Shown here piece by piece: positions 1-52,411 of a stretch of DNA of 52,411 nucleotides. Origin of the DNA: a virus (taxonomy: Duplodnaviria; Caudoviricetes). Position 1 is the first letter of the stretch; every line of letters begins with the position of its first letter. The stretch is from the IMG/VR virus record IMGVR_UViG_3300037751_000149, positions 1 to 52,411 of that record. The stretch is one strand, 5' to 3'. Under the pieces are notes generated by a model, which did not search any database, had not been told where the DNA came from, and saw only the letters and a program-made list of their open reading frames with translations. A program made the position numbers and the translations under genes.

Positions 1-21
1 GATAATCTGTAAAATACCCAC
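1..21 (-). CDS. 5' end of a gene running off the left edge (putative cassette ORF, MGILQII...)
   Basis: GTG at 19-21 with GGGAGG (28-33) 6 nt upstream; only 7 codons visible. Confidence 0.45.
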
Positions 22-39
22 TTTGTGCCTCCCTATAGT

Positions 40-127
40 GGCTAACAAAAAATTCAGTGCGACCGCGAGTAGCCCTGCTATATCACCCGCCAACGGTGGC
101 GCGGTCGCGGTAATTTAGGCGTTATGC
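40..127 (+). mobile_element. attC: integron attC recombination site (88 bp)
   Basis: R'' GGCTAAC (40-46), 5-nt spacer, 8-nt L'' ATTCAGTG (52-59), perfect 9-bp stem GCGACCGCG/CGCGGTCGC (59-67/100-108), 7-nt L' CGGTAAT (108-114), 6-nt spacer TTAGGC, R' GTTATGC (121-127); canonical attC box spacing. Confidence 0.85.
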
Positions 128-5777: not shown

Positions 5778-5788
5778 GCCTTTCCCCT

Positions 5789-6941: not shown

Positions 6942-7154
6942 CTACTTGCGGCTTGCCGCAGCCAAAGCAGCTGAAAACACATCTGCCGGTGGCTTGGTCA
7001 GCGAAAAGTCCAAGGGCAATCCTGCGACCTCGGATATTTTGATAGCGAGCCGCTTTGAAATCTGCCTTCTGCCTCTCAGAATATCGCTGGTATGCCCAAC
7101 GGATATCCCAAGTGCTTTTGCAACCTCGGTACGGCTTAATTTCTTTTTCATCAT
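6942..7154 (-). CDS. cro: Cro-like repressor
   Basis: short HTH LSRTEVAKALGISVGHTSDILRGRR, divergent from cI. Confidence 0.8.
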   Translation of the reverse strand: MMKKKLSRTEVAKALGISVGHTSDILRGRRQISKRLAIKISEVAGLPLDFSLTKPPADVFSAALAAASRK

Positions 7155-7279: not shown

Positions 7280-7993
7280 ATGTTACAAGACGTTTCGGGA
7301 GTATTTCGCGCCGCTTTTTCGCATATCATTAGCGAGGCAAAACGCGGAACACAGGCCAGAGTTTCAAAGGAAACAGGTCTCTACGGGAGCCAGGTTGGCG
7401 ATCTGCTTTCAGGGCGGAGGCCAGGCAGCGAAGAGCAGCGCCGGGCTATCGCCGCCGCCCTCGGTTACACCTACGAAGACATGCTCTCCCTGGGCCAGTG
7501 GATTCTTGAAGGAAAAGCCCCTGCGGAGTTTCAAAAAACCGGCCAGGTCCACCAGGCAAACATCCGCCTCACCGCAAATGTCACGGCAGGCCCGGACATC
7601 ATCGGGGGGATTCCCCTGATCTCATTTGTTCAGGCGGGAGGATGGGCGGAGATCGTGGACAACCTCCAGCCTGGAGATGCCGAGGAATGGATACCCAGGA
7701 TTTCCGGTGTCGGGCCTCGTTCGTTTGCGCTGCGCGTGTCCGGCACCTCCATGGCGCCGGATTACCAGCCGGGGGATATTATTGTTGTGGATCCCGACTG
7801 CCAGCACAACAACGGATCGCTGGTGGTTGCCCGGCTCAATGGCGACAACGAGGCGACGTTCAAGAGGATCGTGATCGACGGGGGCAAAACCTTTTTGGAG
7901 CCGATCAACCAGCGGTATCAGCCGCTTGATATAACCGGCAGGGACGTGACTATTTGCGGGGTGGTCCGGCAGATGTTGAGAAATGTTCAATAG
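7280..7993 (+). CDS. cI: CI-like repressor (HTH plus S24 autopeptidase)
   Basis: VQAG cleavage site, FALRVSGTSM (Ser), EATFKR (Lys). Confidence 0.92.
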   Translation: MLQDVSGVFRAAFSHIISEAKRGTQARVSKETGLYGSQVGDLLSGRRPGSEEQRRAIAAALGYTYEDMLSLGQWILEGKAPAEFQKTGQVHQANIRLTANVTAGPDIIGGIPLISFVQAGGWAEIVDNLQPGDAEEWIPRISGVGPRSFALRVSGTSMAPDYQPGDIIVVDPDCQHNNGSLVVARLNGDNEATFKRIVIDGGKTFLEPINQRYQPLDITGRDVTICGVVRQMLRNVQ

Positions 7994-8007: not shown

Positions 8008-8598
8008 ATGTTTGGATTTCACAGCCAGAAGAAAGATTCTGAATTCGCAGAGGGGTTGGCGGCAACTGCGCTGGTATTCTCGGGGGATGAAGACGCTGGC
8101 AATCTCATGGTCCTCATCTCGGCACCTTCAGAAGAGGGCTTTCACTTCTCTGTCTCTGCGCTTAATTTTTATCTGGCTTCACTGGCGGTGCATTCATCGC
8201 TGTCAATATCAAAAGATCGGAAACAATTCATCCTTGACACCATGCTTTCTTTTTTCACTGGGAAATTGAAAAAATATGAAGATAATTTTTCAGTGAGGGA
8301 CGCTATTAGAGAAAAAGATGAACTGGATTATGTCAGAAGAAAGTGGGGAGATGAAGATTGGGAAACAAATATGCACTCCCTTGTTTCCACCTTCTTCGAC
8401 AAGCGAATAAATGACTTCAGAAAGGCGACGGAAAGATACCCAAAAAACCCAGTTGCTGCGATAGGAGCAACATTCTATGTGCATGTTCACGGCGGAAATA
8501 ACTCAGATGCAGCAGTATCTCAAGGGGCCACACACGCTTTCATTGAGTCCACGTTTGACGCTATTTCCTATGCTTGCAAGTCAGAAGGCCCACGTTAG
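8008..8598 (+). CDS. hypothetical protein, AT-rich, lysogeny operon
   Basis: GGAGG SD directly after cI; visibly lower GC than flanks. Confidence 0.7.
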   Translation: MFGFHSQKKDSEFAEGLAATALVFSGDEDAGNLMVLISAPSEEGFHFSVSALNFYLASLAVHSSLSISKDRKQFILDTMLSFFTGKLKKYEDNFSVRDAIREKDELDYVRRKWGDEDWETNMHSLVSTFFDKRINDFRKATERYPKNPVAAIGATFYVHVHGGNNSDAAVSQGATHAFIESTFDAISYACKSEGPR

Positions 8599-8959
8599 GA
8601 GATTGTTGTGTGTTTGGCTCTCGTTTACCCTGCTCCTTCTCCCCTCTTTGGCCTTTTCCTTTCCCGAAAAGCACTACCAAGAACAATGGTGCGCCAACCA
8701 GGGAGGGCAAGCAGAGGTTGTACTTGCGGACCAGACCCGGGCCGACTGCATCACGGCCACCCACGCCATCGAGTTCGATTTCGGGAGGAAGTGGGCCGAG
8801 GCCATAGGCCAAGCGCTCTATTATTCGCTTCAGACAGGGAAGAGGGCCGGGGTCGTGCTGATCCTCGACGGGCCGAAGGATCGGAGATACTGGATTAGGC
8901 TCAATAGCACCATCCAACATTTCGGGTTGCCGATTGACACCTGGGCAATTGAAAAATGA
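8570..8959 (+). CDS. signal-peptide-bearing PD-(D/E)XK-like protein (start uncertain, 8570 or 8603)
   Basis: hydrophobic leader ending LAFS, then E...RADC...AIEFD...EAIGQALYY. Confidence 0.6.
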   Translation: MLASQKAHVRRLLCVWLSFTLLLLPSLAFSFPEKHYQEQWCANQGGQAEVVLADQTRADCITATHAIEFDFGRKWAEAIGQALYYSLQTGKRAGVVLILDGPKDRRYWIRLNSTIQHFGLPIDTWAIEK

Positions 8960-8976: not shown

Positions 8977-9528
8977 ATGAAAAAGACAATCTTGATCGCG
9001 ATTCTTCTGTTGGTCCCAATGGTTGCACGGGCGGAGCTGGTTGTTGTGCCAGATCCACGATATGTTGACGAGGCGGCGCGGCAACGTCTTGAGCAAACAC
9101 AGAGGGTGGAGGCGGCGCGGCAAGTATTTGACCGGCAGAGACAGCAAGATCAGGAGGCGGACAGGAAGGAAGCGCAGCAGAAGATTGAAGCCTACCAGAG
9201 AAGTCCCGCAGGGATACAGCAAGCAAAAGAAGAGGCTGCTAGGGCGCAGATAATCCCAGGCAAACGTGAGGCTCGGCAGAAAAAAGGCGGTAGATATGTG
9301 GAGGCAGTGGAAAGCCAAGATCGTCAACACGAAGCTAGGGCCAAAAGAGAAGCGCAAGCCTCAGAGGACAACCAGCGAAAACAACAAGAGGAAGACAACC
9401 GGAACCTAAGCGAAGGATACGCCCCAGCCGCAGGCGGAAGGACAAACATAAAGACCGGGGGGTTTCAGCAAGACGTCGGCGGAGGTACATACTTCGACAT
9501 TCAGACCGGGCAATACCATTACAGGTAG
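8977..9528 (+). CDS. exported coiled-coil protein
   Basis: MKKTILIAILLLVPMVARA signal peptide; Q/E/R-rich body; GGAGG SD. Confidence 0.75.
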   Translation: MKKTILIAILLLVPMVARAELVVVPDPRYVDEAARQRLEQTQRVEAARQVFDRQRQQDQEADRKEAQQKIEAYQRSPAGIQQAKEEAARAQIIPGKREARQKKGGRYVEAVESQDRQHEARAKREAQASEDNQRKQQEEDNRNLSEGYAPAAGGRTNIKTGGFQQDVGGGTYFDIQTGQYHYR

Positions 9529-9535
9529 GCATACA

Positions 9536-10579
9536 GTGTCCGTAAAATCACACCCCACCCAAAAGGGGCATTGGGTAGTTGACTACTACCTGCCCGGCAA
9601 GGAGAACGGGAAACGCATACGGGTCCGCGACAACCTGCAATGCACATACGCCTATGCCTTGGAATACGAGAAGTCTATCCGCCGCCAGAAATCAGGGGGG
9701 GCCGGGATCAACACGATCAACCCCACGATCTCCGAGGTCATGCCGCTGTTTTTGGATTGGGTCGCCCTGAACCGGGCGGAGAAAACGCACAAGGATTACG
9801 TCTGCTGCTCTAAGTACCTCCGCGCCGTGTTCGGTCGGCTGCGGGTTAAGCAGATCACCCCGGCGCATATCACCGAGTACCAGCGGTATCGAAACGGCAA
9901 GCGGTGCGCCATCAAAAAAGAGATGATCTATTTTCACCGGCTCATCGACTGGATGGGAAAAAACGACTACTGCCAAAAGGAGGGGCTTGGATTCAAGATC
10001 GAGACCGCCAGATACCAGCGCCCGCAGCCAAAGGTGTTCTCGGCGGAAGAGGCCGAGAGGTTCCTTGCCCAGATAAACGACCCCATAAAGCTGGCCCTGA
10101 TCCTGATAATGTACGAGGGCGGGGCGAGGTTTGACGAGGTTGTTCAGCTTCGGTGGGGGCAAATTTCCTTTGCCAGCGACACGATAATGGTGGTGGGCAA
10201 GGGGAATAAAGAGCGCCTGGTGATGCTGCCGGCCATCGCCAAGGCCATTCTCCAGCCCCTCGCAGGAGACCCCCACGCCGACGTCGCGCCCAATCCAAAA
10301 ACAGGGAAACCGTACACCTCATTCAAAACCGTTTTCCGGGGGGCCTGCCAACGCGCCGGGCTCCACGGGCTCACCCCGCACAAGTTGCGTCACTGCTTCG
10401 CCACGGATGTTCTTGAGTCCTGCGGCGACCTCCGCCTGGTCCAAGAGCTTCTTGGCCACACCGACATCAAAACCACCCAGATTTACACCCACGTTATCAA
10501 GGCCCGCAAGGTCTCCGGCGTTTCCACCATGCTCAAGATGCGGAAAGCCGCCCGCGACAGGAAAAGTGAGACAATTTGA
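9536..10579 (+). CDS. int: phage tyrosine integrase
   Basis: GARFDE (R), GKGNKER (K), HKLRH, LLGH, TQIYTH; abuts attP. Confidence 0.95.
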   Translation: MSVKSHPTQKGHWVVDYYLPGKENGKRIRVRDNLQCTYAYALEYEKSIRRQKSGGAGINTINPTISEVMPLFLDWVALNRAEKTHKDYVCCSKYLRAVFGRLRVKQITPAHITEYQRYRNGKRCAIKKEMIYFHRLIDWMGKNDYCQKEGLGFKIETARYQRPQPKVFSAEEAERFLAQINDPIKLALILIMYEGGARFDEVVQLRWGQISFASDTIMVVGKGNKERLVMLPAIAKAILQPLAGDPHADVAPNPKTGKPYTSFKTVFRGACQRAGLHGLTPHKLRHCFATDVLESCGDLRLVQELLGHTDIKTTQIYTHVIKARKVSGVSTMLKMRKAARDRKSETI

Positions 10580-10590
10580 GACAAATTCCA

Positions 10591-10625
10591 TAAAAAAAGG
10601 GCTTCCAGAAAACCCGGAAACCCTT
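10591..10625 (-). terminator. intrinsic terminator downstream of the tRNA fragment
   Basis: AAGGGTTTCCGG-GTTT-TCTGGAAGCCCTT followed by T-run on minus strand. Confidence 0.65.
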
Positions 10626-10632
10626 ACCACCA

Positions 10633-10677
10633 TGGAGCCAACGAGGAGAGTCGAACTCCTGACCTACTGATTACGAA
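10633..10677 (-). tRNA. 3' half of tRNA-Thr(CGT), attP core; not a complete tRNA
   Basis: TTCGTAATCAGTAGGTCAGGAGTTCGACTCTCCTCGTTGGCTCCA: anticodon loop, T arm, acceptor 3' strand and CCA; no 5' half. Confidence 0.88.
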
Positions 10678-10752
10678 CTATGTTTCCGTATCGCATATGG
10701 TTGTTATCCCGCGATTTCACGACTGTATTTTTGTCTCAATGGGCAGGCCCCA

Positions 10753-18190: not shown

Positions 18191-21100
18191 TTAGGCTGCC
18201 CGTGTCCGCTCAAACTTGCTCGGTTTTGCGTTCTGACGCAGCATGTTACGGATGCTGTTCATGGTGATTGGCCGAATATCCGGCCTTCCCGCGCCAAGGG
18301 CAAGCTCGTTATACCGGGCGATCTCCTTCAATGCCTCCGGGGTGATCCCCTTGCCCTGCAAAAACTCCCGCTTGATCTGATTGTTGATCTCGGATCTTCG
18401 CTCCTGGTACTTGGCCGCAACCTGTTTTTCGTTCCACTGCTTTTCGCGGATGCCGGAAAGCCTGGCCGGGTTGAAGGAGAAGAACCGCAGGGCCGCATCG
18501 AGGCTGTCAGCTTTTAGTGGCTCGTCGCCGTAGAACACCTGGCCGTAATTGCTGGTGGTGATCCCCTCGGTGGCCTCGCGGGCTGCCTTAAACGCGGAAC
18601 CAAAGCCGGTTGGAACCAGCGCCTCGACTCCCTTCCAGACTTCACCCTTGGCAAGATGCTTCACTCCCTTCCATGTATCGGTGGCAACCGCACCAGGCGC
18701 TCCGCCCAGCTCACTGAGCTTCGTCGGTATCGGGTTGTTGGCCTGCAATGAACCCTTGAGGTTGATACCTATCATCCCGGCCAACCCTTGGCGGGCAAAG
18801 GCATCCGAGCCGAAAGTATCTTCCGCCCACTTGTAGTATTCTTCTTCCGGGTCGTCGCCGCCTATGCCCATTGCCTGAGCCAGGGCCATCAAGGCGGACA
18901 CAGGCAGCGAGGCCCCGGCCCCTGCGAGGATCGCAGGAGACAACATCAGGTACGCCGCCGCCGTCCGTTGCCTGTCCCAATACAGGTAGCGGTCGAGCCC
19001 CATTTCTTCCGGGGCATTGGCGAAGAATTGCTTGCGGGCGTTCAGCAGATAGTTGTGGCCAAACTTGGCAAACACATAATTCAATCCAAGGATTCGCCCC
19101 AGATCCCCCCCCCGAGTGAATGCCGGCCGGTCCCCTTTGTCATATCGCCCGTGGGCATCGCTGGAAATCTCCTCAGCCTTTTCCCACAAGTCAGGCTCGG
19201 AAAGCTCCGGGTGTTTCTCCTGCGCTGCCTTGTAAGCGGCAAAGATCGTCATGGCTCGGTTGGCTTTTTCGGTGATACCGAAGAGGGCCATTCCCCATGT
19301 GGTGAAGGTGTTCCACTTGTCGCCAAACTCCGTCCTTAATTCGCGGGCCGCCTCTGCGTTGTACTGCGCATCGTCCAGCCCCCGGTTGGTTATCTCCTGC
19401 AAGATACCCCTATCCTCGGCGCTGAGTGTTCCCTTCCCAGATAGATACTTCCCGTATGCCGTCGCGGCCTTGCCAATATGGGCAAACGCTTTCCATGGTG
19501 TAATGTCGAGGGCCGAAGACATTGTGCCCGGAACACCTGTGACCATGTTGGTCAAGTTCACCGCCGCCGAAGAGACCCGGAAGGCCAGGAACTTCTGCAC
19601 GGCCAACCCTTTCATAGTGCCGACTATCCGGTCAAGCTGCTCGTCGTTCCGCAGCATATCCACGATGTATTCCACCCCGTCGCGGTAAGCGTTCTTTTGC
19701 AAGCTGGCGTCCACCCCTCGGTCTTTTACGAAGTCCAGGTATTCGCCATACTCCTTGCCCGGGTTCTTTTCTTCCCAGGCATCCCAAGACACGTCGCGCC
19801 CGGTGAAGGCAAGCATTAAGTCCCGTGCCATATCCCGCTTTGCCACCCCGGCCGCCACCCCTTTTGCGTACTGGATCAACGCTTTTTGCGGATCATCCTC
19901 ATATCCCTCCCAAACATCGCCCCCTACCCGGTGCATCCGGGAAGAGAGGAAGCCGCGCTGCTGGATAATTGCCGCCGCCCGCTGGGTAAGCAACAGGTTG
20001 ATGTGCTGGCTGGCTTTTATGTCCGCGCTGTCTTTTTTGTCTACCACACTCATAGTCGAATCGAGCACGGCATCCAAAGATGCAACAAGTCGGGGAGCCG
20101 AAAAGACATCCTCGGAAAGGGAGGCGTCTTTCTCCACGGTCACATCATACCCCTGCTTGGTCAGCCTGCTGGCCTCTCTCCCATTGGGAGAGAGTTGGTT
20201 GACAAGATCCCGCCATCCCGGCTTTTCGTCTGTGTCGTCCACTCTCAGGTCCGCGTCAAATGGCTTTCTGATGGGATTCTCGCCATCCTTCTTGGCGACC
20301 AACACATAAGCCCCGTCCCGTCGCTGGCGCGGCATGTAGGAGCCGACCAGTTCGTCCATGGCCGCGATGGACTGCTTTACCGTCATGGGCCGCATCTCGG
20401 CATCGGTTCTTTGCTTTACCCGGAGGTTGCCGAAAGCCTTTTGCCCCCGGACTGTTCCGCTCCTTTTCCTGGCCCAGGCTTTCGCCTTCGCTTCATCCTT
20501 AAACATCCGCTCAACGGGGTCTGCCACCTTGCTCCCGCCGCCCTGAATCATCACAAACCATGACTGCATCTCGGCAAGCCTGTCCATGGCGTCCGCAGCC
20601 TGCTGCTCGGTAGCAAAAAGGGCAACCGGCTCTTTCTGCCCTTCCGCATAAATCCCATACCTGCCGGCTTCATCGATGGTTTTCCCGCTTGCGAACGGGT
20701 CAGGAAGCCCTGCCTCTTTTGCGTCGGACTGCATCTGCACCATCTCGGCCCGCAATTCGTTCAGCGCCCGATTGGTTAATTCTCTGCCCAAGCGGATGTA
20801 ATTCACCCCTTCGGGGGCAAACCCTATTTTCTCAAGATATTCGCTTTCCTGATCGTAAAGAAAAGCAATCGCCTTGTCTCTGTCGTTAAAAAACTCCCCG
20901 ACCATCTTGCCGGCCGGACTCAACACCTTGTACTGATCCCCCTCCATCCGCAACTTGAACGAATACCCAGACTGGTCGGTTTCTTTCAGGTATTCCTTGA
21001 CGGCCTCATATTCATCCGGGGCGGACTCCTTCAGCTTCTTTCCCTGCCTGGTAAAGTCGGTTTTTTCAGCAAAAGCAGAGGCCTCTTCCTTGCTCTTAAA

Positions 21101-24100
21101 CTCTTGTTTGGTGCCGTCGCCGGTTGTTGCCAGATAGGTGCCATGTCCCAGGGGCTGGATTGATGCGGCACCCAGAATCTCGCTTTCCTTGGCAAACTTG
21201 GCTTTCTGCCGGTTCATTACCACATCAAACATGCGGCCCATCGCCGGGACATCCTTGAAATAATAAGCCGGGGTTGAAAGCAGGCGCTGCCAAAAAGTGA
21301 AGTCCTTTTTTTTCTTCTTGGTGGTAGACTTGCCGCGCTTTTCTACGAAGTCGGCAACTTCTTCCAGGTTCTCCAGGGACATGGGTGATCCCACATACTC
21401 CGCGCTATCTTCGCGCACCAAGTGTCCGGCCAACCCTTTCCGGCCAGAAAGCATACCCACCTCCGGCCTTATCCCCCTGTTGGCCAAAAACTCTCCTGAC
21501 TGTAGATGGACATCATGTAGTAGGTCAGTCTTCACCGCCTCCTCGAAGTTCAAGGCGGAGTTGTCTGGGACATTGACGGCAAACAACCTTGTTGACCCGG
21601 TCGCTCTCGCAAATTTTCTCAGCATCCCGGCCATGCGAATTTTACTTAGGGGGCTTACTTTTTCAACGGGGACGTCCATTATGCCAGTTACTAAAGATTC
21701 ACCGCCTGAGACACCGATAACCTGGAAGGTTTCTTTTGCCCCCTGTAGCTGCGCGGCGACACCGGCCAAGTGGTCAACGCTATTGATTTTCATGCCCAGG
21801 ATGGGGTGGGGGGTGGACGGTTCGTTTTTCCCGTAACGGTCAGCGGCCTGCGTTATGCTTGCCGGAAGTGGTTTAACCTGGACATCAAAACCTTGGATAG
21901 TGGCATAGCTGTCGTGGTTTATTACCACATGGCCAAGAAATAAATCTGGGAGTTCTGCGGCGATGGCGAGGGTGGTTTCCTTATCTTGTGCGCTTGGGGT
22001 GGGGTTGCCGCTGGGGTGATTATGCAGAAGGTAAAAGCCGTCCGCCCCCGACTTTTCCCCCATCTTTTGGATTTGGTCAACGCCATCTAGCAGGGTTGCT
22101 CCGCCGATAAATGCGGCGGATGCTCCAGGCAGCCGCGATGTAACACCGGTGATATTTACCACGCGCCCATCTTTTACAAAGACATACCTGTTCGTCTCGA
22201 AAGAGGGGTTGCGGAATATCTGGCCGATAATTGCCAGATCGGCGAGGCTCTCTACTCGTTGTCCGATGAGATTGATTTTGCTCTGGTCTTTGAAGGATTT
22301 GGCGATATTATTACCAAGTACGGTCCCAGGCAGCCCCCGCAGGTAGCCAGCGGCTTCTCGCTCTGCCCTTTCGTAGTTTCCTTGTTGTGCGCCGGTAAGG
22401 GTTTCGACTCTTCGCCCATATTCTCCCGCCTCCCGCCTGGAAATATTGTTTTTTGTATTGTCGCCCTCAATGGCGTAAGAGTCAAGCCCGGAGTACAGCG
22501 CCACGCCCTTGTCTGACTTCTCAATGATTCTGGCCAGCTTCTTTTTATCCCGCACAAGGGACGCTTCGATCTCAACCCGTTTAGCAGGAAGTATCTTGCC
22601 CTTCAGTAAGGTTCGCGCTTCGTTAATGCTGGCCCGGATTTGTTGTTCTTCTGTGGTCTGATGGCGAACCTGCTCAGGATAACGATCTACCGATTCATCC
22701 GTATTCTTTCCGGGCGCGTAGTCTGCTGGGGTCGCATCAGTTATCGAATATCCGGACTTCTCGTCATATTCTGCGGCCTTCGCAAGCAATCTTTCTCTGT
22801 GAGCCTGCATGTCTTGGGCAGATTCACCCGTCTGTTTGTCGCCGGTCATGTCATCCTGGGTTGACAAATCATGGGGGCCATTTGTCGTTTTTTCCGCTTC
22901 AAGCCGCCCAATCTCCTTCTTGTTCAGGGCCGGGTAATCATTCAGTCTGGCGATCTTCTCGTCTATTACGGCAACACGGGCCTCTTCTTTTGCGGACCGG
23001 TAAACATCTTCAAGGGTTGACCTGTTCTTCTCCTGAACAGGCGTCACCTCCCCGGTCTTCAATTCAATCTCTCCTATCTCTGTCCCAGTAACGGAGTGGG
23101 CCACCGTAGCTATTCCATCACTATCAACGCGATATTCAAACTGCTTGAATTGCCGTGAACCTGACTTGTCCTGCTTGTTTATGGCAACCCTGGCAATGTC
23201 GTCACCAGTCACCCCTATTGCTACGCCGGCAGATGGCTCAGTCCTTTCCGCCTCAAGCCGCTCCTTGGCCTGCTGAACCAGGGCCAGCTTCAGGGCGTTT
23301 TCCGGGTCTTTGGCCAGCATGGCACGGGCGTTTTCAAGCTCGGCCTCGCGGGTTGAGGCGGTCAGATTGTCGCCGGTTTTGTCACCAGAAATGTCACTGG
23401 TTTTGTCCATGTTATCTTCTTGTTTTACCGCAACTTCTTTCTTGGCATCTTCGTTAAAATGTCCAGCGTTTTGATCGGTGTTCAGCTCTGCGTTGTCGGC
23501 CTGGGCCACAGGAGCCACAGTATCAGCCTTATCAGTCTGGGCATGGGGGGTCTCCTTCGCTGAAGATAAAACAGCTTCGGATTTCTTTTTTATCTTGGCC
23601 AACTTGGCTGCGGCCTTGCTAGCGATCTCTTCCTGGATCGCTTCTTTGGCGGCCTCACGCTTGGCGGTCTTCCCGGTCGCATCGTCTACTATCTCCTGGG
23701 AGGAAATACGGGCAGACTCCCAAAACCTTGCGTCGCTGGTGAGCTTCCCGCGAACACTGTGGTCGCTCGTTCTTTTAAGCTCTGCTACTTTCTGCGCTGC
23801 CAGCGATAAGGCTTCTTCCGGCGATAAAGTTGCCGCTGTCTTTGCGGCCCACTCTCTTCCACCCTCCAGCGGAGACACAATCAGCGCAGCCCTCACCGCC
23901 GCCTCATGCTTCTTGGCAAAAACCAGACCGCCGCGCTTGGTATTCGGGATACCAGTGGGCGCAAAACCAGCGTCTTTCAATTTGGCTCGGAGTGTGGGGG
24001 TGTCGCCCAAGGCAATAATGGACTTGGCGCCAAGAGGTTCTACTGTGAATTGGAGGGATGAAGCAGGGGCCGATTCGCCAGGCTGGCTCGGCTGGGCCTT

Positions 24101-26569
24101 GATAGCCTCTTGCGAGGTCACGGAAGTAACCAAAGTAACCCCAGATGGCGCGCTTGCGTCAGAGGCGTCCGGGGTGTTGTTCTCTACTGCGGGTCGTTCG
24201 GTTCCGGCAGGTCCGGCACTGGCTTGTCCAGCATCTCCTGAAACTTCTTGGCGTGTTCCGGGTCCAGCCCCTTCCGCTCCATTTCCTTGATCGCGGCTTC
24301 CGCCTTCCGTTTCCCTTCTTTCTGGGTCGAGTTCATTGGGAGTCTCCCTGCTTATATTATCAGAACTCCCCCCCAGGATAGCAAGTTTTCGGCCTGTTCT
24401 TTTCTCGTACATCCCCCCAACCATATTGAAAAGCTGCTGGGCAAATGACGCTTGCCGGTGCAGGTTGTTCTGCCGAATGTAAGCAAACACGTCCGCCATC
24501 GCCGCCCGGTCTGCCTGGGGGATGGCGTTCTCGAAGTGAGCAAGGGCGTTGTCCGGGTCGTCCATTTCAGAGGTGGGCAATCCGGTTCTTCCGGCAAGAT
24601 CCTCTTTTTGTTTCGGGACGAGAATAAACCCTTTTTCTCCGGGACGCAAGGTTGATGCCTTAACAACATCGTGCGTCTTCATGCGCTTACCTGCCGCTCG
24701 TTTTGCCGCGGCCTCATTCACAATGGCCCGGCCATTCTTGGCGGTGATAATCGGGAGACCAGGAGCGGCTGCCTCTGCCGCCATTTCTGGAGAGTTGGCG
24801 CCATGCTCCCGTGCAGCATAATCGTTGATGTAGGCAAGCGCGGCCTCATGTCTCGGGACAAGGGGCTTGTTGGCCGCAAGCCTTCTGGTTGCCGCCATGA
24901 CATCAAACGGCGTTACCGTCTTCGCATAGTTGGTGCCGTGCTTGGCATCAAAGGCCTCTATCGTTGGTTTTCTGTACCATGAGGGAGAGAACTCGCCAAG
25001 CGGCTCCATCTTCCCTTCGGTGTCGTCTTTCGTCCGCTCAGACTCCCTCGGGATCGCCCGCTCAAGCCCAGATATTACGGCGCTATATTCCTTGGTGGTC
25101 TTGGGTGCTGGTTCGAACAACTTCCGGTTCGCTTCGTTCTGGGCATCGATCTCCTCTTTGGTCAACCGCTTCTTCCCTTTCGCAAGGGGTTCGGTAAATT
25201 CCAAGGATGATAGATCCCCAACCTCCTTGGCCGGCAGCACAGTCGGGCGGCCCGGCATGGACACCTGGCGCTCTTCTGGTTCTTGGTCAAAAGTGGGAGC
25301 CTCGGAAACTGGCGGGGCCAATATCTCCCCGGTGGTCGGGTCAACAGCTTCCGGCTGGGCCACATCTCCGGGAAGCTCCGGCTGATAGGCCTGATACTCA
25401 TCCTCCATCGTTGCTGTTGATGGATAATCCGGCAAGTCGCCCATGACCGGCTCCACAGCCGCAACATTCTCCCCAACAAGCATCTCCCTTTCTGCCTTGA
25501 GAGCGTCAAGGTTCTCCTGCGCCCTTGGGGATGCCTTGGCCGTGGTCTCCAGGTTGGCGATCTTCCGGTCAAGCTCGGCCGTATCTATGGGCTCCTGGCG
25601 CCCGGAATAACCGTAAACCTCTGCGGGGGCAGCTTCTACCGGGCTTGCCTCTTTTCTTCCGGTCAAGGCGTTAAACCCTCCGCCCATTGCCGCCCCGGCG
25701 AGAAGCCCCTGCGCCGCCGCCTCCGGCACTCCGTCGAGAAGATCCTTACCAAGGGCCGCGTTCTGCCACATCGTTTCCTGGACAGATTGCGGCAGCTCCT
25801 CGAACACGCCCTCAGATATGCCGCCGCCGATGATCCTGGCCGCGACATTGCCAACCCCCTTGGCCGCGCTTTTCTCTCCAGAACCAAGCCGCGCAAGGTA
25901 GGTGTCCGCGTCCTCAAGCCCGAACTTCTTTGCCAGCCTGCCACCCACCGCGCCGAACAGGGCAGTGCCCGCGCCGGACAAAACCGCAGCGGCATCTTGG
26001 CCGACCGACAACACCCCTTCTTCCGTCTGCTGCCGGGTTGACTCTGCCGAAGATCCTGCCGCCGCCACACCCTCGCCGACGGCCCCCGCCATGATCGGGC
26101 TTATTGCCGGGGCCAGCTTCCTGGCCGCGCCGCCTATCGCGCCGCCCCCGACCATCACAGGCAGAGACTCGATTACCGAATGGCCGATGGTGCTGGGGTT
26201 CGCCAGTGCCGCCTTGGCGGTATCGACAAAACCCTCTGCGTCAGAAACCTCCTGGTTGGCCCACTTCTGCGCCGGGGAATACTCTGCATCCAGAACCCGG
26301 TGCGTTGCCTGCGGGTCATACCCGATTGACTCAAGGGCCTTCCCGGCCCGGCCAAGCGTAGGAATATCAGCAAGGCCGACCACCGCCTCCCCGGCCCCCA
26401 CAACACCCTTGGCCGCAGAGACCCCAATGTCGGCGATGGTTCCACCGATGGTTCTTTCCGGCTGTTTTTTCTTCTGGTCCACATCTTGCGCCGCATTGCG
26501 GCCAAACTCCGGGTCGCTGAACGGGTTGAGGTCTGCGCCAAAATTCGGATCACTAAAAGGATTCGCCAT
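18191..26569 (-). CDS. giant (2792 aa) internal virion/DNA-ejection polyvalent protein with JAB (RadC-like) domain
   Basis: G/A-rich hydrophobic N-terminal region, central E...LLHNHPSGNPTPSAQD, last gene of virion block. Confidence 0.75.
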   Translation of the reverse strand: MANPFSDPNFGADLNPFSDPEFGRNAAQDVDQKKKQPERTIGGTIADIGVSAAKGVVGAGEAVVGLADIPTLGRAGKALESIGYDPQATHRVLDAEYSPAQKWANQEVSDAEGFVDTAKAALANPSTIGHSVIESLPVMVGGGAIGGAARKLAPAISPIMAGAVGEGVAAAGSSAESTRQQTEEGVLSVGQDAAAVLSGAGTALFGAVGGRLAKKFGLEDADTYLARLGSGEKSAAKGVGNVAARIIGGGISEGVFEELPQSVQETMWQNAALGKDLLDGVPEAAAQGLLAGAAMGGGFNALTGRKEASPVEAAPAEVYGYSGRQEPIDTAELDRKIANLETTAKASPRAQENLDALKAEREMLVGENVAAVEPVMGDLPDYPSTATMEDEYQAYQPELPGDVAQPEAVDPTTGEILAPPVSEAPTFDQEPEERQVSMPGRPTVLPAKEVGDLSSLEFTEPLAKGKKRLTKEEIDAQNEANRKLFEPAPKTTKEYSAVISGLERAIPRESERTKDDTEGKMEPLGEFSPSWYRKPTIEAFDAKHGTNYAKTVTPFDVMAATRRLAANKPLVPRHEAALAYINDYAAREHGANSPEMAAEAAAPGLPIITAKNGRAIVNEAAAKRAAGKRMKTHDVVKASTLRPGEKGFILVPKQKEDLAGRTGLPTSEMDDPDNALAHFENAIPQADRAAMADVFAYIRQNNLHRQASFAQQLFNMVGGMYEKRTGRKLAILGGSSDNISRETPNELDPERRETEGGSRDQGNGAEGAGPGTRQEVSGDAGQASAGPAGTERPAVENNTPDASDASAPSGVTLVTSVTSQEAIKAQPSQPGESAPASSLQFTVEPLGAKSIIALGDTPTLRAKLKDAGFAPTGIPNTKRGGLVFAKKHEAAVRAALIVSPLEGGREWAAKTAATLSPEEALSLAAQKVAELKRTSDHSVRGKLTSDARFWESARISSQEIVDDATGKTAKREAAKEAIQEEIASKAAAKLAKIKKKSEAVLSSAKETPHAQTDKADTVAPVAQADNAELNTDQNAGHFNEDAKKEVAVKQEDNMDKTSDISGDKTGDNLTASTREAELENARAMLAKDPENALKLALVQQAKERLEAERTEPSAGVAIGVTGDDIARVAINKQDKSGSRQFKQFEYRVDSDGIATVAHSVTGTEIGEIELKTGEVTPVQEKNRSTLEDVYRSAKEEARVAVIDEKIARLNDYPALNKKEIGRLEAEKTTNGPHDLSTQDDMTGDKQTGESAQDMQAHRERLLAKAAEYDEKSGYSITDATPADYAPGKNTDESVDRYPEQVRHQTTEEQQIRASINEARTLLKGKILPAKRVEIEASLVRDKKKLARIIEKSDKGVALYSGLDSYAIEGDNTKNNISRREAGEYGRRVETLTGAQQGNYERAEREAAGYLRGLPGTVLGNNIAKSFKDQSKINLIGQRVESLADLAIIGQIFRNPSFETNRYVFVKDGRVVNITGVTSRLPGASAAFIGGATLLDGVDQIQKMGEKSGADGFYLLHNHPSGNPTPSAQDKETTLAIAAELPDLFLGHVVINHDSYATIQGFDVQVKPLPASITQAADRYGKNEPSTPHPILGMKINSVDHLAGVAAQLQGAKETFQVIGVSGGESLVTGIMDVPVEKVSPLSKIRMAGMLRKFARATGSTRLFAVNVPDNSALNFEEAVKTDLLHDVHLQSGEFLANRGIRPEVGMLSGRKGLAGHLVREDSAEYVGSPMSLENLEEVADFVEKRGKSTTKKKKKDFTFWQRLLSTPAYYFKDVPAMGRMFDVVMNRQKAKFAKESEILGAASIQPLGHGTYLATTGDGTKQEFKSKEEASAFAEKTDFTRQGKKLKESAPDEYEAVKEYLKETDQSGYSFKLRMEGDQYKVLSPAGKMVGEFFNDRDKAIAFLYDQESEYLEKIGFAPEGVNYIRLGRELTNRALNELRAEMVQMQSDAKEAGLPDPFASGKTIDEAGRYGIYAEGQKEPVALFATEQQAADAMDRLAEMQSWFVMIQGGGSKVADPVERMFKDEAKAKAWARKRSGTVRGQKAFGNLRVKQRTDAEMRPMTVKQSIAAMDELVGSYMPRQRRDGAYVLVAKKDGENPIRKPFDADLRVDDTDEKPGWRDLVNQLSPNGREASRLTKQGYDVTVEKDASLSEDVFSAPRLVASLDAVLDSTMSVVDKKDSADIKASQHINLLLTQRAAAIIQQRGFLSSRMHRVGGDVWEGYEDDPQKALIQYAKGVAAGVAKRDMARDLMLAFTGRDVSWDAWEEKNPGKEYGEYLDFVKDRGVDASLQKNAYRDGVEYIVDMLRNDEQLDRIVGTMKGLAVQKFLAFRVSSAAVNLTNMVTGVPGTMSSALDITPWKAFAHIGKAATAYGKYLSGKGTLSAEDRGILQEITNRGLDDAQYNAEAARELRTEFGDKWNTFTTWGMALFGITEKANRAMTIFAAYKAAQEKHPELSEPDLWEKAEEISSDAHGRYDKGDRPAFTRGGDLGRILGLNYVFAKFGHNYLLNARKQFFANAPEEMGLDRYLYWDRQRTAAAYLMLSPAILAGAGASLPVSALMALAQAMGIGGDDPEEEYYKWAEDTFGSDAFARQGLAGMIGINLKGSLQANNPIPTKLSELGGAPGAVATDTWKGVKHLAKGEVWKGVEALVPTGFGSAFKAAREATEGITTSNYGQVFYGDEPLKADSLDAALRFFSFNPARLSGIREKQWNEKQVAAKYQERRSEINNQIKREFLQGKGITPEALKEIARYNELALGAGRPDIRPITMNSIRNMLRQNAKPSKFERTRAA

Positions 26570-49148: not shown

Positions 49149-49334
49149 TCAAATTAAGTTTTTGTCTTTCGCCATCCACTCCGGCATCGTCACCACCACC
49201 GTCTGCCCGACCTCGCCCTCATATTCAAGCTGCGATTTCGGCAGCCACTCGGTTACATCTCCGTCCGTTACCTGGATGGCACGCTCTGATTCCCGCAGGA
49301 TTTCTACTGTGATTTCGGTTGTGGCTTGGCTCAT
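49149..49334 (-). CDS. small acidic hypothetical protein
   Basis: ESERAIQV...WLPKSQ...MPEWMAKDK; ATGA coupling. Confidence 0.75.
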   Translation of the reverse strand: MSQATTEITVEILRESERAIQVTDGDVTEWLPKSQLEYEGEVGQTVVVTMPEWMAKDKNLI

Positions 49335-50098
49335 GCGGATACCTCTGGAAACGCTTGGCCCTGCAACTCTTCCGGGATCGGTGCGCCTGCGCTCATTTGC
49401 TTCATAAAGAATGGGGTGCCGGAAACAGCACATTGCGCCTTGAGATATCCGGCCCAATCTTTTTCCATGATCCGAGCTTCCGGCCCCGATTCTCCCCCAC
49501 AGATAACCCAATGAATCTTTGGATTATCATCGGCATGTTCGTGGACACCTGGGGTTTGATAAACTCCAGCCAAGGCGTCGTATGTTGCAGCTCCGCCCAA
49601 ATCAATTCTTGTTAAATCGACCTCACCAACCATGGGCTCAACGGAAACAAAAAGAACTGGTGCCCCATGGACAGAAAAAAGGATAGGAATACGCTTGTTT
49701 GCCACCTCCTGATTCTCGGCGGTAACGCCAAGCCACACGTTTTTAAATGGCCATCCGACAGGCAACCGACCGGCGATGTTCTCTGGCCGCTTCGTGAGTA
49801 TCTGGTATGTCAGGTGCGGAGTCTTGCGGATGATCTCCCACGCCTCGTCGCGCCACGGGTCAGCTTCCTTAATGAAGAAGTCTGACCATGAGCAGATAAA
49901 TACCTTGGCCGGTTCTTTCCATTTCAACGGGAGATTGAAGGTGGCAGGCTTGGAGCGGATCACCGTTGCCGGGTCTTGCCCGTACCTGTTTTTGTCCCGG
50001 TACATATAGCAATTCATGCAGCCAGGAGACACCTTATGGCAACCCTGCCATGGGTTCCATGTGTTGTCGGTCCATAATATTCCTGAGTTCTCAGCCAT
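49331..50098 (-). CDS. DUF5131 (phage Gp37/Gp68) radical-SAM-like protein
   Basis: WTDNTWNPWQGCHKVSPGCMNCY, LTKRP, WVICGGESG, PFFMKQ. Confidence 0.92.
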   Translation of the reverse strand: MAENSGILWTDNTWNPWQGCHKVSPGCMNCYMYRDKNRYGQDPATVIRSKPATFNLPLKWKEPAKVFICSWSDFFIKEADPWRDEAWEIIRKTPHLTYQILTKRPENIAGRLPVGWPFKNVWLGVTAENQEVANKRIPILFSVHGAPVLFVSVEPMVGEVDLTRIDLGGAATYDALAGVYQTPGVHEHADDNPKIHWVICGGESGPEARIMEKDWAGYLKAQCAVSGTPFFMKQMSAGAPIPEELQGQAFPEVSA

Positions 50099-50704: not shown

Positions 50705-51219
50705 GCCATCCCTTTTCTCAGATGATCGACCAAATCATTCCCGATTTGCGGCACCAGCTTTCGGAGCAGAGTTTCGCGTGGCATCGCCCGCAGACCACGC
50801 TCAGAAATCATGTAGGCCGAGTGCGGGCCGGCGGAATATTCCAGATGCACTGCGGCCTGAAAAGTTTCCCTGTTTTCTTTCAGAAACACCCGGAGTGCCC
50901 ACAGGTCTATTCTCCGAAATGCTATTGAATCTGGCCGGTCATCCCCAACAACCACACCTAAATCCAGGGGAGGGAACGCCTCTGCTCGGCATCTATCGCG
51001 TGGCCCAACCCCCATCAACTTCTTTGGCGGCAGAGCAATGGAATTATGGCAGACTGATTCAATTATGGCCCGCATCTCAAGCATGTTGACCCTTGCATCT
51101 TTCAGCTCTGCCGAATAATAATTCATCAATTCGGCGCTCAGTTGTTGAGCTTGCTTCCATTTCACTATCTCTTCCAGGTGCTTCCGCTTCTGGTTTCTTC
51201 CGTATCTCCGAGACATCAT
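50701..51219 (-). CDS. hypothetical phage protein
   Basis: MSRRYGRNQKRK start; ATGA-coupled both sides. Confidence 0.7.
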   Translation of the reverse strand: MMSRRYGRNQKRKHLEEIVKWKQAQQLSAELMNYYSAELKDARVNMLEMRAIIESVCHNSIALPPKKLMGVGPRDRCRAEAFPPLDLGVVVGDDRPDSIAFRRIDLWALRVFLKENRETFQAAVHLEYSAGPHSAYMISERGLRAMPRETLLRKLVPQIGNDLVDHLRKGMA

Positions 51220-51674
51220 CTCCCCCTATCGTCCGGATGCGGCAGCCTGATCGCAAGCCCCGCCGCCTCCCGCTCAACTTCGTTCATAAATTCCGACATC
51301 TGCTTGATGCCGGCCTTGGTAATCGACGTTTCCTTGACGATATGCCGCCACAGCCTGTCGGCCTCTTCTTTCATCCCCATGGCCCGCACAGCATCAAGCG
51401 ACGAGACCATTTCAGCGTATTCAATGTCATCCCGGATGAAGATAGGGACAAGATGCCGCTCTTTGCTTTGCTCGTGCATGGCATCCTTGGTCATGCCAAG
51501 CTCTTCGCCGATAATTCCCATCCACTTGAAGTACAGCCCGCGCTGTTCTGCGCTAATGTCCTTCTTTGCCTCACGGATGATGATCTCATGGACAGGCTCC
51601 ATGGGTAGCCCAGCAATAATCGCCTGCGCCCTGGCGGCAAGCTCCGGGGTTCTGATGGTGAGGGTTTGCTTCAT
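51216..51674 (-). CDS. NinB/YbcN-like recombination protein
   Basis: SAEQRGLYFKW...MHEQSK...SITK....QMSEFM...GLAIRLP. Confidence 0.7.
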   Translation of the reverse strand: MKQTLTIRTPELAARAQAIIAGLPMEPVHEIIIREAKKDISAEQRGLYFKWMGIIGEELGMTKDAMHEQSKERHLVPIFIRDDIEYAEMVSSLDAVRAMGMKEEADRLWRHIVKETSITKAGIKQMSEFMNEVEREAAGLAIRLPHPDDRGR

Positions 51675-52411
51675 GCGCCGGCCACCATATCCATGGGGCT
51701 GATTACCCCGGCACCGCGGCTCATCACATGCAGGTATATCTGCGTGGTGCGGATGTCGTCGTGGCCCAGGAGATCCTGCACGGTGCGAATGTCAACCCCG
51801 CTTTCGAGCAGGTGCGTGGCGAAGGAGTGGCGAAACGAATGGCAGGAGGCCATCTTGTTGACCTTTGCCCGCCGCACTGCCAGCTTTACCTGCCGCTGCA
51901 AGGCCGATTCGTGCAGGTGGTGGCGGTAGAAACATCCGGTTGGCTTGTCCACGCACAGGCGGGAAGCGGGAAAGATGTACTGCCAAGCCAGTTCCTTGGA
52001 GGCGTTCCGGTATTTGCGGGCCAGCGCCGGTTCCATGGTGGATCCCTCGTAGCCGTGCGCGAGATCGTCGGCAAGCAGGGCCTCCGCCCGGGCGACATGC
52101 GCCCGCAGGCGGTCCACCGCCGAGACAGGCAAAGGGACGATCCGGTCTTTTTGCCCCTTGCCGAATTTGACATGCAGGGAGGCGCGGTCAAAATCAATCT
52201 CCTTGACCCGCAGACGGCAGCACTCCATAAGCCGAAGGCCTGAGCCGTAAAGCAGGGCAGCCATAAGCGCATAGGGCTCCGGGAGCAGGGAGATAACCCG
52301 CTTGGCTTCGGCACGACTGAAGACCACCGGCAGGTTTTTCGGCCGCTTGGCCCGAACGAACTGGCTAAAATCCCCGACCTCAACCTGGATCACATGCTTG
52401 TAAAGAAAAAC
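51671..52411 (-). CDS. intI: integron integrase (5' end beyond window)
   Basis: FLYKHV, RAKRPKNLPVVFS, LLYGSGLRLMEC, GKGQKDR, IntI-specific insertion ALARKY...WQYIFP...RHHLHESALQR, HSFRHSFATHLL, LLGH, TTQIY; frame open to window edge. Confidence 0.95.
   Translation of the reverse strand, partial: VFLYKHVIQVEVGDFSQFVRAKRPKNLPVVFSRAEAKRVISLLPEPYALMAALLYGSGLRLMECCRLRVKEIDFDRASLHVKFGKGQKDRIVPLPVSAVDRLRAHVARAEALLADDLAHGYEGSTMEPALARKYRNASKELAWQYIFPASRLCVDKPTGCFYRHHLHESALQRQVKLAVRRAKVNKMASCHSFRHSFATHLLESGVDIRTVQDLLGHDDIRTTQIYLHVMSRGAGVISPMDMVAGA

What the first reader, a model, noticed from the sequence alone, without database searches (positions are those of the whole stretch)
51671..52411. Integron integrase built into a phage early operon: candidate phage-encoded integron
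Seen: a protein with all tyrosine-recombinase catalytic motifs plus the IntI-specific insertion. Its TGA overlaps the ATG of the NinB-like gene (ATGA, 51671-51674) and starts a chain of ATGA-coupled phage genes. The phage already has its own integrase and attP at 9.5-10.7 kb, so this enzyme is not needed for lysogeny. An attC lies at the opposite end of the window. Known: integrons consist of intI, attI and attC cassettes, with the attC top strand normally opposite to intI, as here (intI minus, attC plus); they are typically chromosomal or on plasmids/transposons. Inference: the genome is circular, and the missing part holds the intI 5' end, attI and a variable cassette array that broke the assembly. 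The phage would then capture and shuffle accessory genes between yqaJ and ninB.
Basis: partly seen in the sequence, partly recalled or inferred. Interest (0 to 1): 0.93.

Follow-up and report, generated by a model that had tools for sequence, protein, structure and literature searches.

The report
Integron built into a phage operon
This phage contig starts with an integron recombination site and ends inside an integron integrase gene, and a related contig shows the full gene-cassette array between the two, so these phages seem to carry their own gene-shuffling system.

Summary
Window 51671-52411 (-) is the 3' 246 codons of an integron integrase: it scores 320.7 bits on TIGR02249 (cutoff 265), and its 99%-identical full-length relative aligns end to end with VchIntIA. 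Its TGA overlaps the NinB start. The hairpin at 40-127 is the only hit in the window (E 0.006) to an attC covariance model that I trained on bacterial sites only, and its orientation relative to intI is canonical.

The window is a whole linear record. Both its ends share exactly 127 nt with the ends of a second, otherwise unrelated phage contig, so the missing segment is a shared assembly-graph edge. A relative of that second phage (L003) is continuous: DnaB, six attC-like sites separating five gene cassettes and one small cassette without a clear gene, an attI-like junction, then intI. Contigs from other samples stop matching L003 at those R-boxes.

Two features are unusual. The cassette ORFs lie on the intI strand, inverted relative to class 1. 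intI is embedded in phage operons in three different backbones.

The window's own missing segment was not recovered. Phage integrons are in print (Qi 2023), but those are host-derived fragments or class 1. Verdict: a new variant of a known kind.

The parts
51671..52411 (-). 3' 246 codons of an integron integrase gene (intI); the 5' ~100 codons lie beyond the contig end
   Evidence: TIGR02249 320.7 bits, cutoff 265. 99% identical to the full-length L003 protein, which aligns with VchIntIA 2A3V at E 1.8e-77.
51671..51674 (-). ATGA overlap: intI stop codon and NinB start codon
   Evidence: Sequence and ORF coordinates.
51216..51674 (-). NinB/Orf-like recombination mediator, first phage gene after intI
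   Evidence: PHROG 72, E 3e-13; no Pfam hit.
40..127 (-). attC site; the bottom (recombinogenic) strand is the - strand and the top strand is +. It would be the last attC of the array.
   Evidence: Bacterial-only attC model R1: 20.0 bits, whole model matched, E 0.0061, the only window hit below E 1. The + strand fold has 2 extra unpaired bases in its 5' arm, as class 1 top strands do.
121..127 (+). R' core GTTATGC. It holds the TAA stop of yqaJ on the - strand and is the exact point where the window and the second phage contig diverge.
   Evidence: Identical prefix of exactly 127 nt; stop codon context.
1..39 (-). Start of a gene running off the contig: GGGAGG at 24-29 and GTG at 15-17. It would be the gene of the last cassette.
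   Evidence: Sequence read directly. Too short to identify.
1..127 (.). 127-nt overlap shared exactly with the left end of the 34-kb contig (L008)
52285..52411 (.). 127-nt overlap shared exactly with the right end of the same 34-kb contig (L005)
122..1939 (-). YqaJ/RecE-like exonuclease, the backbone gene abutting the attC
   Evidence: Pfam YqaJ 1.8e-08; PHROG 7655 1.3e-160.
9536..10579 (+). Separate phage-type tyrosine integrase
   Evidence: Pfam PF00589 6.3e-31. attP was not examined.

Best explanation
The window is a temperate-type phage genome that lacks one segment. That segment is an integron.

Layout, read on the - strand, which is the direction of phage transcription: yqaJ is followed by the last attC (127 to 40). 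Then come one or more cassettes, which are missing from the record. Then an attI and intI, whose last 246 codons are at 52411 to 51671. intI is translationally coupled to ninB and the rest of the operon.

Proposed mechanism: IntI would recombine the folded bottom strand of the attC sites with attI or with each other. This would excise, insert and reorder cassettes, as in bacterial integrons. Unlike bacterial integrons, the cassette genes lie on the same strand as intI, so transcription of the phage operon would express both the cassettes and intI. The cargo seen in relatives is mostly DNA-modification genes, so the likely benefit is fast turnover of anti-restriction functions.

Shown: IntI family membership, the attC identity and orientation, a full array in a relative, and breakpoints at R-boxes in other samples. 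Inferred: that the window's two ends join through such an array, that IntI is active, and how the cassettes are expressed.
For: IntI. TIGR02249 scores above its cutoff. The 99%-identical full-length protein aligns with VchIntIA 2A3V at E 1.8e-77 over residues 30-340.

attC model. R1 was trained on 21 bacterial sites only: 5 class 1 sites and 16 sites from 6 chromosomal loci next to intI genes. I searched it over 48 phage sources, 721,759 bases. It gave 24 matches at E<=10 and 15 at E<0.1. All 15 lie in L042 (7), L043 (3), L003 (3), the window (1) and L008 (1, the same sequence as the window's). All are on the gene strand. The other 43 sources had none below 0.1; their best were E 0.4 and 3.8. 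In the window alone with filters off, 40-127(-) is the only hit below E 1, at E 0.0061.

The relative L003. Three sites score E<=0.0034 and two more score E 1.6 and 2.9. All five are on the intI strand within 3.7 kb upstream of intI. A sixth site was read by eye at 6981-7071. Upstream of intI, homology between L003 and L004 begins right after a TAAC box.

Junctions. The window and the 34-kb contig share exactly 127 nt at both ends and diverge right after GTTATGC. L003 and that contig share DnaB (94%) up to GCATAACGCC and then carry different hairpins. This places the crossover in the AAC box on the intI strand, which is the canonical arrangement.

Other samples. Logan contigs of runs X3 and X4 match single L003 cassettes and run on unlike at 9631/9633, 8810/8817, 8491, 7443 and 6982. 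Each position is inside or directly beside a predicted R-box.

Structure. The phage sites fitted to R1 are 79.9% paired, against 30-45% when partners are slid. Nine of 18 pairs show changes on both sides. That alignment was fitted to the model.

Phage context. intI overlaps ninB in the window. It overlaps a gpA terminase in L004. In L003 and L005 it precedes a small recombinase, an HNH gene and terminase genes.
Against: The window's missing segment was not recovered. An exact 48-mer scan of the metagenome collection gave 0 hits, and no viral contig holds it. Adjacency of the two ends therefore rests on the shared 127-mers and on homology to L003.

CheckV puts completeness at 67%. The gap could be long and could hold ordinary phage genes between intI and the attC.

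The window's attC score is modest: 20.0 bits, E 0.085 in the 722-kb search. R1 is my own model with shortened calibration. Its training sites were picked with my own hairpin scan and not with IntegronFinder.

No sigma-70-like promoter was found near intI or attI in L003 (0 found). The cassette ORFs are inverted relative to the classical design.

The intI copy of the 34-kb contig has a 111-nt in-frame deletion that removes the GSGLRLMEC box. At least some copies may therefore be dead.

No recombination was observed directly. Mosaic boundaries at gene ends are also common in phages without any site-specific recombinase.
Confidence: 0.75

Rival explanations
1. The integron parts are real but not one unit in this phage. 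intI stands alone (an In0-like gene kept for another role, such as integration into host attC or attI sites, or dimer resolution). The hairpin at 40-127 is a solitary attC or the edge of an integrase-less array. Ordinary phage genes fill the gap between them.
For: CheckV completeness is 67%. Integrase-less attC arrays exist in related yqaJ phages: the L042 record, rated 100% complete by CheckV, has no IntI. The window's missing segment was not recovered.
Against: Both window ends share 127-mers with the ends of the 34-kb contig. The homologues of those ends in L003 lie only 4.0 kb apart and are joined by an attC array. The attC orientation relative to intI is canonical.
Confidence: 0.15
2. The hairpins are intrinsic terminators or generic intergenic palindromes at phage module boundaries. 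The recombinase is a Xer-like enzyme unrelated to them.
For: On the - strand the window hairpin is followed by a T-run. L003 sites a and d are flagged as weak terminator-like sites. Qi et al. note that attC sites are thought to contain weak terminators.
Against: The terminator scan does not flag the window hairpin, and the scan totals are at shuffle level: 5 found against 3.7 expected, and 8 against 7.1. A model trained only on bacterial attC sites finds these sites and nothing at E<0.1 in the 43 other phage loci. The outer AAC/GTT boxes are conserved while the centres differ. The protein passes the IntI-specific cutoff, whereas XerC and XerD models score far below theirs.
Confidence: 0.05
3. 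This is a fragment of a host chromosomal integron picked up by imprecise prophage excision, or a chimeric assembly, as in the Vibrio anguillarum phages described by Qi et al. 2023.
For: That route is documented for two Vibrio phages. The contig ends inside intI.
Against: intI overlaps phage genes by ATGA in two backbones, ninB in the window and gpA terminase in L004. It sits in three different phage contexts with DNA identity of 91-98%. The scan of 185,579 species genomes returned no IntI above 62% over any segment, and about 50% or less for near-full-length matches. The nearest named protein is 76% identical. The cassettes in L003 carry phage-type genes (DUF5131, PAPS-reductase-like, methylase) on the phage coding strand.
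Confidence: 0.05

Closest known systems
Bacterial integrons (class 1 mobile integrons; sedentary chromosomal integrons such as that of Vibrio cholerae)
   Same: An IntI-family recombinase with the IntI-specific segment. attC hairpins with AAC/GTT boxes that fit a model built from bacterial sites. The attC bottom strand lies on the intI strand, as in the bacterial arrays used for training. The units between sites are cassette-sized, about 270-1000 nt. A junction lies directly upstream of intI where cassettes differ.
   Different: intI is not divergent from a promoter region. It follows a co-directional gene by about 68 nt and overlaps the next phage gene. The longest ORFs lie on the attC bottom strand in 5 of 5 L003 segments, 6 of 7 in L043 and 6 of 7 in L042. 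In the class 1 control the annotated cassette genes lie on the top strand. The TAA of the R-box serves as the stop codon of the neighbouring gene in 4 of 6 L003 genes and in the window's yqaJ. The carrier is a phage.
Integrons and CALINs in phage genomes (Qi et al. 2023, PMC9892861; I read the whole Results section)
   Same: Integron parts inside phage genomes. DNA methyltransferases are recurrent cassette cargo. Arrays without integrase occur in phages.
   Different: They report 3 complete integrons and 1 In0 in 10,705 genomes. These are a fragment of the host's chromosomal integron in a Vibrio prophage, class 1 integrons on a P1 phage-plasmid, and a cryptic Shewanella prophage whose IntI is 95.3% identical to a host-type IntI. 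Those IntIs are 42-45% identical to the window's. Here intI is coupled to phage genes, occurs in three backbones and has no close bacterial counterpart.
Integrons with an inverted integrase gene (Treponema and others). This is recalled knowledge; I saw only the search listing of PMC3607928.
   Same: intI and the cassette genes are transcribed in the same direction.
   Different: As I recall, in those integrons the intI gene is flipped relative to attI and the attC sites. Here the relation between intI and attC is canonical and it is the ORFs inside the cassettes that are flipped. Not tested here.
Accessory-gene (nin/moron) regions of lambdoid phages
   Same: The position between the recombination/replication genes and ninB. 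The small accessory genes. Mosaic boundaries at gene ends.
   Different: Those regions are thought to exchange by homologous or illegitimate recombination (recalled). Here each unit is bounded by an attC-like site and a dedicated recombinase gene sits at the end of the array.

Membership tests
Integron integrase (IntI, NCBIfam TIGR02249) | Score above the curated family cutoff | tested here: met
   320.7 bits against a cutoff of 265 for the truncated 246-aa fragment. The XerC, XerD and XerA models score far below their cutoffs.
Integron integrase (IntI, NCBIfam TIGR02249) | Tyrosine-recombinase catalytic boxes (R, K, HxxR, H, Y; residue roles are recalled) | tested here: met
   The boxes GSGLRLMEC, GKGxKxR, CHxxRHSFATH, LGH and TQIY align identically with VchIntIA 2A3V. 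All of them are present in the window fragment.
Integron integrase (IntI, NCBIfam TIGR02249) | IntI-specific extra segment between the conserved patches, which contacts the extrahelical bases (role recalled) | tested here: met
   The alignment with 2A3V across ALARKYRNASKELAWQYIFP...YRHHLHES has no gaps. TIGR02249 is matched in one stretch, model positions 73-314 of 315.
attC recombination site | Imperfect hairpin with R''/R' boxes ending in AAC and starting with GTT, recognised by a covariance model | tested here: met
   R1, trained on bacterial sites only, scores 20.0 bits over the whole model at E 0.0061 in the window. The model is mine and is not the one IntegronFinder uses.
attC recombination site | Strand asymmetry (extra unpaired bases on one arm) that sets the orientation | tested here: met
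   R1 is built in bottom-strand orientation and hits the - strand only. The + strand fold has 2 extra unpaired bases in its 5' arm, like class 1 top strands.
attC recombination site | Recombined by an IntI | not testable with these tools
   This needs an attC x attI assay. Indirect support: contigs from other samples diverge at the R-boxes.
Complete integron (intI plus attC sites close by; the definition is recalled from IntegronFinder) | intI with at least one attC within a few kb, in the relative L003 | tested here: met
   Three attC hits at E<=0.0034 and two weaker ones, all within 3.7 kb upstream of intI on the same strand.
Complete integron (intI plus attC sites close by; the definition is recalled from IntegronFinder) | The same, in the window itself | tested here: inconclusive
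   intI and the attC lie at opposite ends of a linear record. Their adjacency is inferred from the shared 127-mers and from L003. The missing segment was not recovered.
Complete integron (intI plus attC sites close by; the definition is recalled from IntegronFinder) | attI site next to intI | tested here: inconclusive
   A 67-nt stretch before the intI start is conserved between L003 and L004. It begins right after a TAAC box, and contigs from X3 and X4 break at 9631/9633. No binding or recombination data exist.
Complete integron (intI plus attC sites close by; the definition is recalled from IntegronFinder) | Cassette genes oriented away from intI and driven by a promoter (Pc) in or near intI | tested here: not met
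   The longest ORFs are on the intI strand in 5 of 5 L003 segments. No sigma-70-like promoter was found in L003 4600-11000 (0 found). This is the main departure from the classical design.

The most novel reading that the evidence does not exclude
This is a lineage of phage-native integrons. intI is a gene of the phage operon, and the cassettes are kept in reverse orientation so that phage transcription reads through them. The system serves to swap DNA-modification and other counter-defence genes among phages. During infection it may also swap cassettes with the attC arrays of host integrons and of integrase-less phages such as L042 and L043.
Probability: 0.45. Interest if true: 0.85.

Novelty: new variant of a known kind. 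Interest (0 to 1): 0.75.

Why it matters
Integrons are known as bacterial devices, and the few reported in phages look like passengers taken from hosts or plasmids. An integron whose integrase is wired into a phage operon would be different. So would cassettes that face the phage's direction of transcription and carry methylases and other DNA-modification genes. Together these would mean that phages use the same cassette logic for their own arms race. The idea makes three predictions that can be tested. Cassette circles and array variants should appear in infected cultures or sediment samples. The phage IntI should recombine these attC sites. Cassettes should be shared between phage arrays and host integrons. 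It would also explain why such contigs break at intI and attC sites in assemblies, and so why these elements are under-reported.

Tried and rejected
Rfam at gathering thresholds found nothing in the window. The tRNA scan found none.

My first hairpin scan looked for AAC...GTT ends and used folding energy. It is unspecific, giving roughly 0.25-0.5 merged hits per kb in ordinary phage DNA (13 in the 52-kb window). I used it only to pick candidates. The sites it suggested in L039 were not confirmed by R1 (no hit at E<=10), so L039 is not counted as an array.

RNAalifold on the bacterial training alignment gave only 11 pairs. I supplied a structure derived from the class 1 fold and checked it first: 74.6% of cells paired, against 29-50% with slid partners.

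Recovery of the missing segment failed. An exact 48-mer from the shared 127-mer gave 0 hits in metagenome contigs. The protein-based second scan returned 80 loci, all at 52% identity or less. Viral contigs holds no further piece.

Read laying was laid on L003 and not on the window, so it says nothing directly about the window. In runs X1, X3 and X4 the PAPS-reductase cassette region of L003 (about 8989-9450) had no or almost no cover while its flanks were covered (table 2).

I considered a phylogeny of IntI and did not run one. The identity gradient (99, 82, 76, 62-59, then 54% or less) was judged enough for the claim made.

I did not look for an attP beside the second integrase. A CTG-N8-CAG palindrome in the attI-like stretch is shorter than the LexA box as I recall it, so I make nothing of it.

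Supplementary tables of Qi et al. 2023 were closed; they list the 17 CALIN phages and their contexts and might include relatives of L042 and L043.
Full report
WHAT IS AT THE COORDINATES. The window is a whole IMG/VR virus record of 52,411 bases, classed as linear, with a CheckV completeness of 67%. On the minus strand, 51671..52411 is an ORF of 246 codons that runs off the contig at its 5' end. It scores 320.7 bits on NCBIfam TIGR02249 'integron integrase', whose curated cutoff is 265. The XerC, XerD and XerA models score far below their own cutoffs.

A full-length relative in a viral contig (L003, 345 aa) is 99% identical over the fragment. It aligns over residues 30-340 with the solved Vibrio cholerae integron integrase (2A3V, E 1.8e-77) without a break. 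The alignment covers the recombinase boxes and the segment between them that is special to IntI. The intI stop overlaps the start of the next gene by ATGA. That gene is NinB-like (PHROG 72, 3e-13), and it overlaps the gene after it in the same way.

The rest of the window is a phage. It holds a RecE/YqaJ-like exonuclease, RecT, a replication initiator, a large terminase, a portal protein and a separate phage-type integrase at 9536..10579.

THE SITE AT THE OTHER END. Bases 40-127 form a hairpin with AAC and GTT ends. To test it without circularity I built a covariance model (R1) from bacterial sites only. Five come from the class 1 arrays on a P1 record. Sixteen come from six chromosomal loci that lie next to intI genes. 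All were oriented on the intI strand, which is the bottom strand. The structure I gave the model is supported on that alignment: 74.6% of cells are paired, against 29-50% with slid partners, and 14 of 24 pairs show changes on both sides.

I searched R1 over 48 phage sources, 721,759 bases, on both strands. It gave 24 matches at E<=10, and 15 of them had E<0.1. All 15 fall in five sources: L042 (7), L043 (3), L003 (3), the window (1) and L008 (1, the same sequence as the window's). All lie on the strand of the phage genes. The 43 other sources had nothing below 0.1; their best hits were E 0.4 and 3.8. In the window alone with filters off, 40-127 on the minus strand is the only hit below E 1 (20.0 bits, E 0.0061; the next is 1.9).

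So the bottom strand is the strand of intI and the top strand is the plus strand. A simple terminator scan does not flag the hairpin, and its totals are at shuffle level.

WHY THE CONTIG ENDS WHERE IT DOES. A 34,120-base viral contig is held here as L008 (its left end) and L005 (its right end). It shares exactly 127 bases with the window at each end and otherwise shares only the 3' part of intI (96.7% identity). I recall that 127 is the last k-mer size of a commonly used metagenome assembly recipe. Exact overlaps of that length at both ends are what two paths through one assembly graph look like.

The two phages, W (the window) and V (the 34-kb contig), therefore share or converge on a segment S. 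S begins inside intI and ends with the attC. At the attC end the two sequences diverge right after GTTATGC, the R' core. On the far side W has yqaJ and V has dnaB.

S itself could not be fetched. An exact 48-mer gave no hit in the metagenome collection, and no further viral contig holds it.

WHAT S LOOKS LIKE IN A RELATIVE. L003 comes from another sample and is a relative of V. Its DnaB region is 94% identical in DNA, and its intI and downstream genes are 97-99% identical. L003 is continuous across the gap.

Reading in the direction of intI, L003 runs as follows:
- DnaB (4649-5977)
- site a (5982-6038)
- C5 cytosine methylase
- site b (6981-7071)
- orf7092
- site c (7436-7527)
- site d (7703-7759; 53 of its 57 bases repeat site a exactly)
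- DUF5131 (Gp37/Gp68-like)
- site e (8489-8576)
- orf8558
- site f (8810-8898)
- a PAPS-reductase-like gene
- a GGCTAAC box (9630-9636)
- a 67-base stretch, then intI (9704-10741)

R1 with filters off scores site d at 4.8e-06, a at 0.00023, e at 0.0034, f at 1.6 and c at 2.9, all on the intI strand. Site b was read by eye only.

L004 is a third backbone, in which intI overlaps a gpA terminase by ATGA. Upstream of intI it is homologous to L003 only from the base after the TAAC box onward. That is where an attI crossover point would be.

V and L003 share DnaB up to GCATAACGCC and then carry different hairpins. W and V differ before that box and are identical after it. Both facts place exchange in the AAC box of the intI strand, which is the G|TT of the top strand.

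VARIATION IN OTHER SAMPLES. I laid the Logan contigs of four sediment-metagenome runs on L003:4600-11500. Run X2 matches L003 throughout. In X3 and X4, contigs match single units and then run on with unlike sequence at these places:
- 9633 and 9631: records 22 and 29, before the attI-like stretch
- 8810 and 8817: records 21 and 28, the R-box of site f
- 8491: record 20, the R-box of site e
- 7443: records 19 and 27, one base past the R-box of site c
- 6982: record 27, inside the R-box of site b

X3 also has a contig that joins 7326 through 13 other letters to the start of site a/d. The units between sites therefore occur in different company in different samples, and the breaks fall at the predicted boxes. 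This is what cassette exchange predicts. Contigs cannot show the reaction itself.

WHAT IS UNUSUAL. In L003 the longest ORF of every inter-site segment (5 of 5) lies on the intI strand, which is the attC bottom strand. The same holds in 6 of 7 segments in L043 and 6 of 7 in L042. In the class 1 control the annotated cassette genes lie on the top strand. One bacterial control, L062, gave no clear picture because its ORFs are short.

The TAA inside the TAAC box is the stop codon of the methylase, DUF5131, orf8558 and the PAPS-like gene in L003. The same holds for yqaJ in the window and for the ORF upstream of attI in L004. Two start codons lie inside their own attC site.

No sigma-70-like promoter was found in the region. 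intI follows the last cassette gene by about 68 bases on the same strand. The simplest reading is that the phage operon reads through the cassettes and intI. This is inferred and not shown.

Cargo: a C5 methylase, DUF5131 and a PAPS-reductase-like gene in L003; a Dam-type methylase (8e-25) and a C5 methylase (1.6e-05) in L043. Methylase cassettes in phage arrays were noted before.

HOW FAR THE FAMILY REACHES. IntI copies above 90% identity occur in the window and in contigs L003, L004, L005 and L007. Their DNA similarity to the window stops within about 20 bases of the intI stop codon in every case, so the gene sits in at least three backbones.

The scan of 185,579 species genomes returned near-full-length IntI matches at about 50% identity or less; short segments reach 62%. 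The best of the 80 metagenome loci kept reach 52%. In the 5.8-billion-protein collection the gradient is 99%, 82%, 76% (a protein named integron integrase from a Desulfobulbaceae MAG, on a 38-kb contig), 62-59%, and then 54% or less.

L042 and L043 are phages found through their yqaJ gene. They carry R1-confirmed arrays but have no IntI in their records, and the L042 record is rated 100% complete by CheckV.

COMPARISON WITH WHAT IS KNOWN. I read the Results of Qi et al. 2023 (PMC9892861) in full. They screened 10,705 phage genomes and found 3 complete integrons, 1 In0 and 17 CALINs. The complete ones are a subset of the host's chromosomal integron in a Vibrio prophage, class 1 integrons on a P1 phage-plasmid, and a cryptic Shewanella prophage whose IntI is 95.3% identical to a host-type protein. 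Those IntIs are 42-45% identical to the window's.

Full-text searches did not turn up an integrase embedded in a phage operon or inverted cassettes. I searched for phrases such as 'phage-encoded integron', and for integron terms together with prophage and viral contigs. I saw only the listings and abstract openings and the passages of PMC13366799 and PMC9024848. This is a limited search of open-access text, and the supplements were closed.

VERDICT. The one open step is that the window's own missing segment is inferred from a relative and from the assembly overlaps. It is best filed as a new variant of a known kind. It has the parts and the site geometry of an integron. It is carried by phages as one of their own operon genes, with cassettes turned to face the phage's direction of transcription.

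Confidence in the main explanation is 0.75. The strongest rival (0.15) is that the parts are real but are not one contiguous unit in this particular phage.

Noticed in passing
L005 1-630 (right end of the 34-kb contig); L007 1-261: The intI copy of the 34-kb contig has a 111-nt in-frame deletion relative to the window (52182-52284) that removes the GSGLRLMEC box. L007's copy lacks 225 nt. These are either decaying copies or assembly artefacts at short repeats.
   Followed up: partly
L042 13250-16320; L043 11121-13300: Two other yqaJ-type phage contigs carry arrays of attC sites that the bacterial model confirms (7 and 3 hits at E<0.1), but their records have no IntI. L043's cargo includes Dam-type and C5 methylases. 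All sites are in bottom-strand orientation on the gene strand.
   Followed up: partly
window 49331-50098 (-): The window's DUF5131 (Gp37/Gp68-like) gene is 78% identical in DNA to the DUF5131 cassette of L003, but it has no attC beside it in the window. The same gene is a cassette in one phage and a backbone gene in another.
   Followed up: partly
L003 10814-11467; L005 703-1356: A small (217 aa) tyrosine recombinase gene lies directly after intI in two contigs (Pfam 3.6e-21). Its role is unknown.
   Followed up: no
L003 5983-6035 and 7704-7756: Two attC sites in one array are identical over 53 nt. Logan contigs of run X2 end inside both copies.
   Followed up: partly
protein P0005: The closest named relative of the phage IntI (76% identity) is annotated in a Desulfobulbaceae MAG on a 38-kb contig. 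This is a possible host clue or a prophage. The contig could not be fetched.
   Followed up: no
window 18191-26569 (-): A single ORF of 2,792 codons lies in the structural region. It was not examined.
   Followed up: no
L003 9637-9703; L004 121-187: The attI-like stretch holds a CTGCA...TGCAG palindrome that is largely conserved between the two contigs (one base differs in the 5' arm). It could be a protein-binding site.
   Followed up: no
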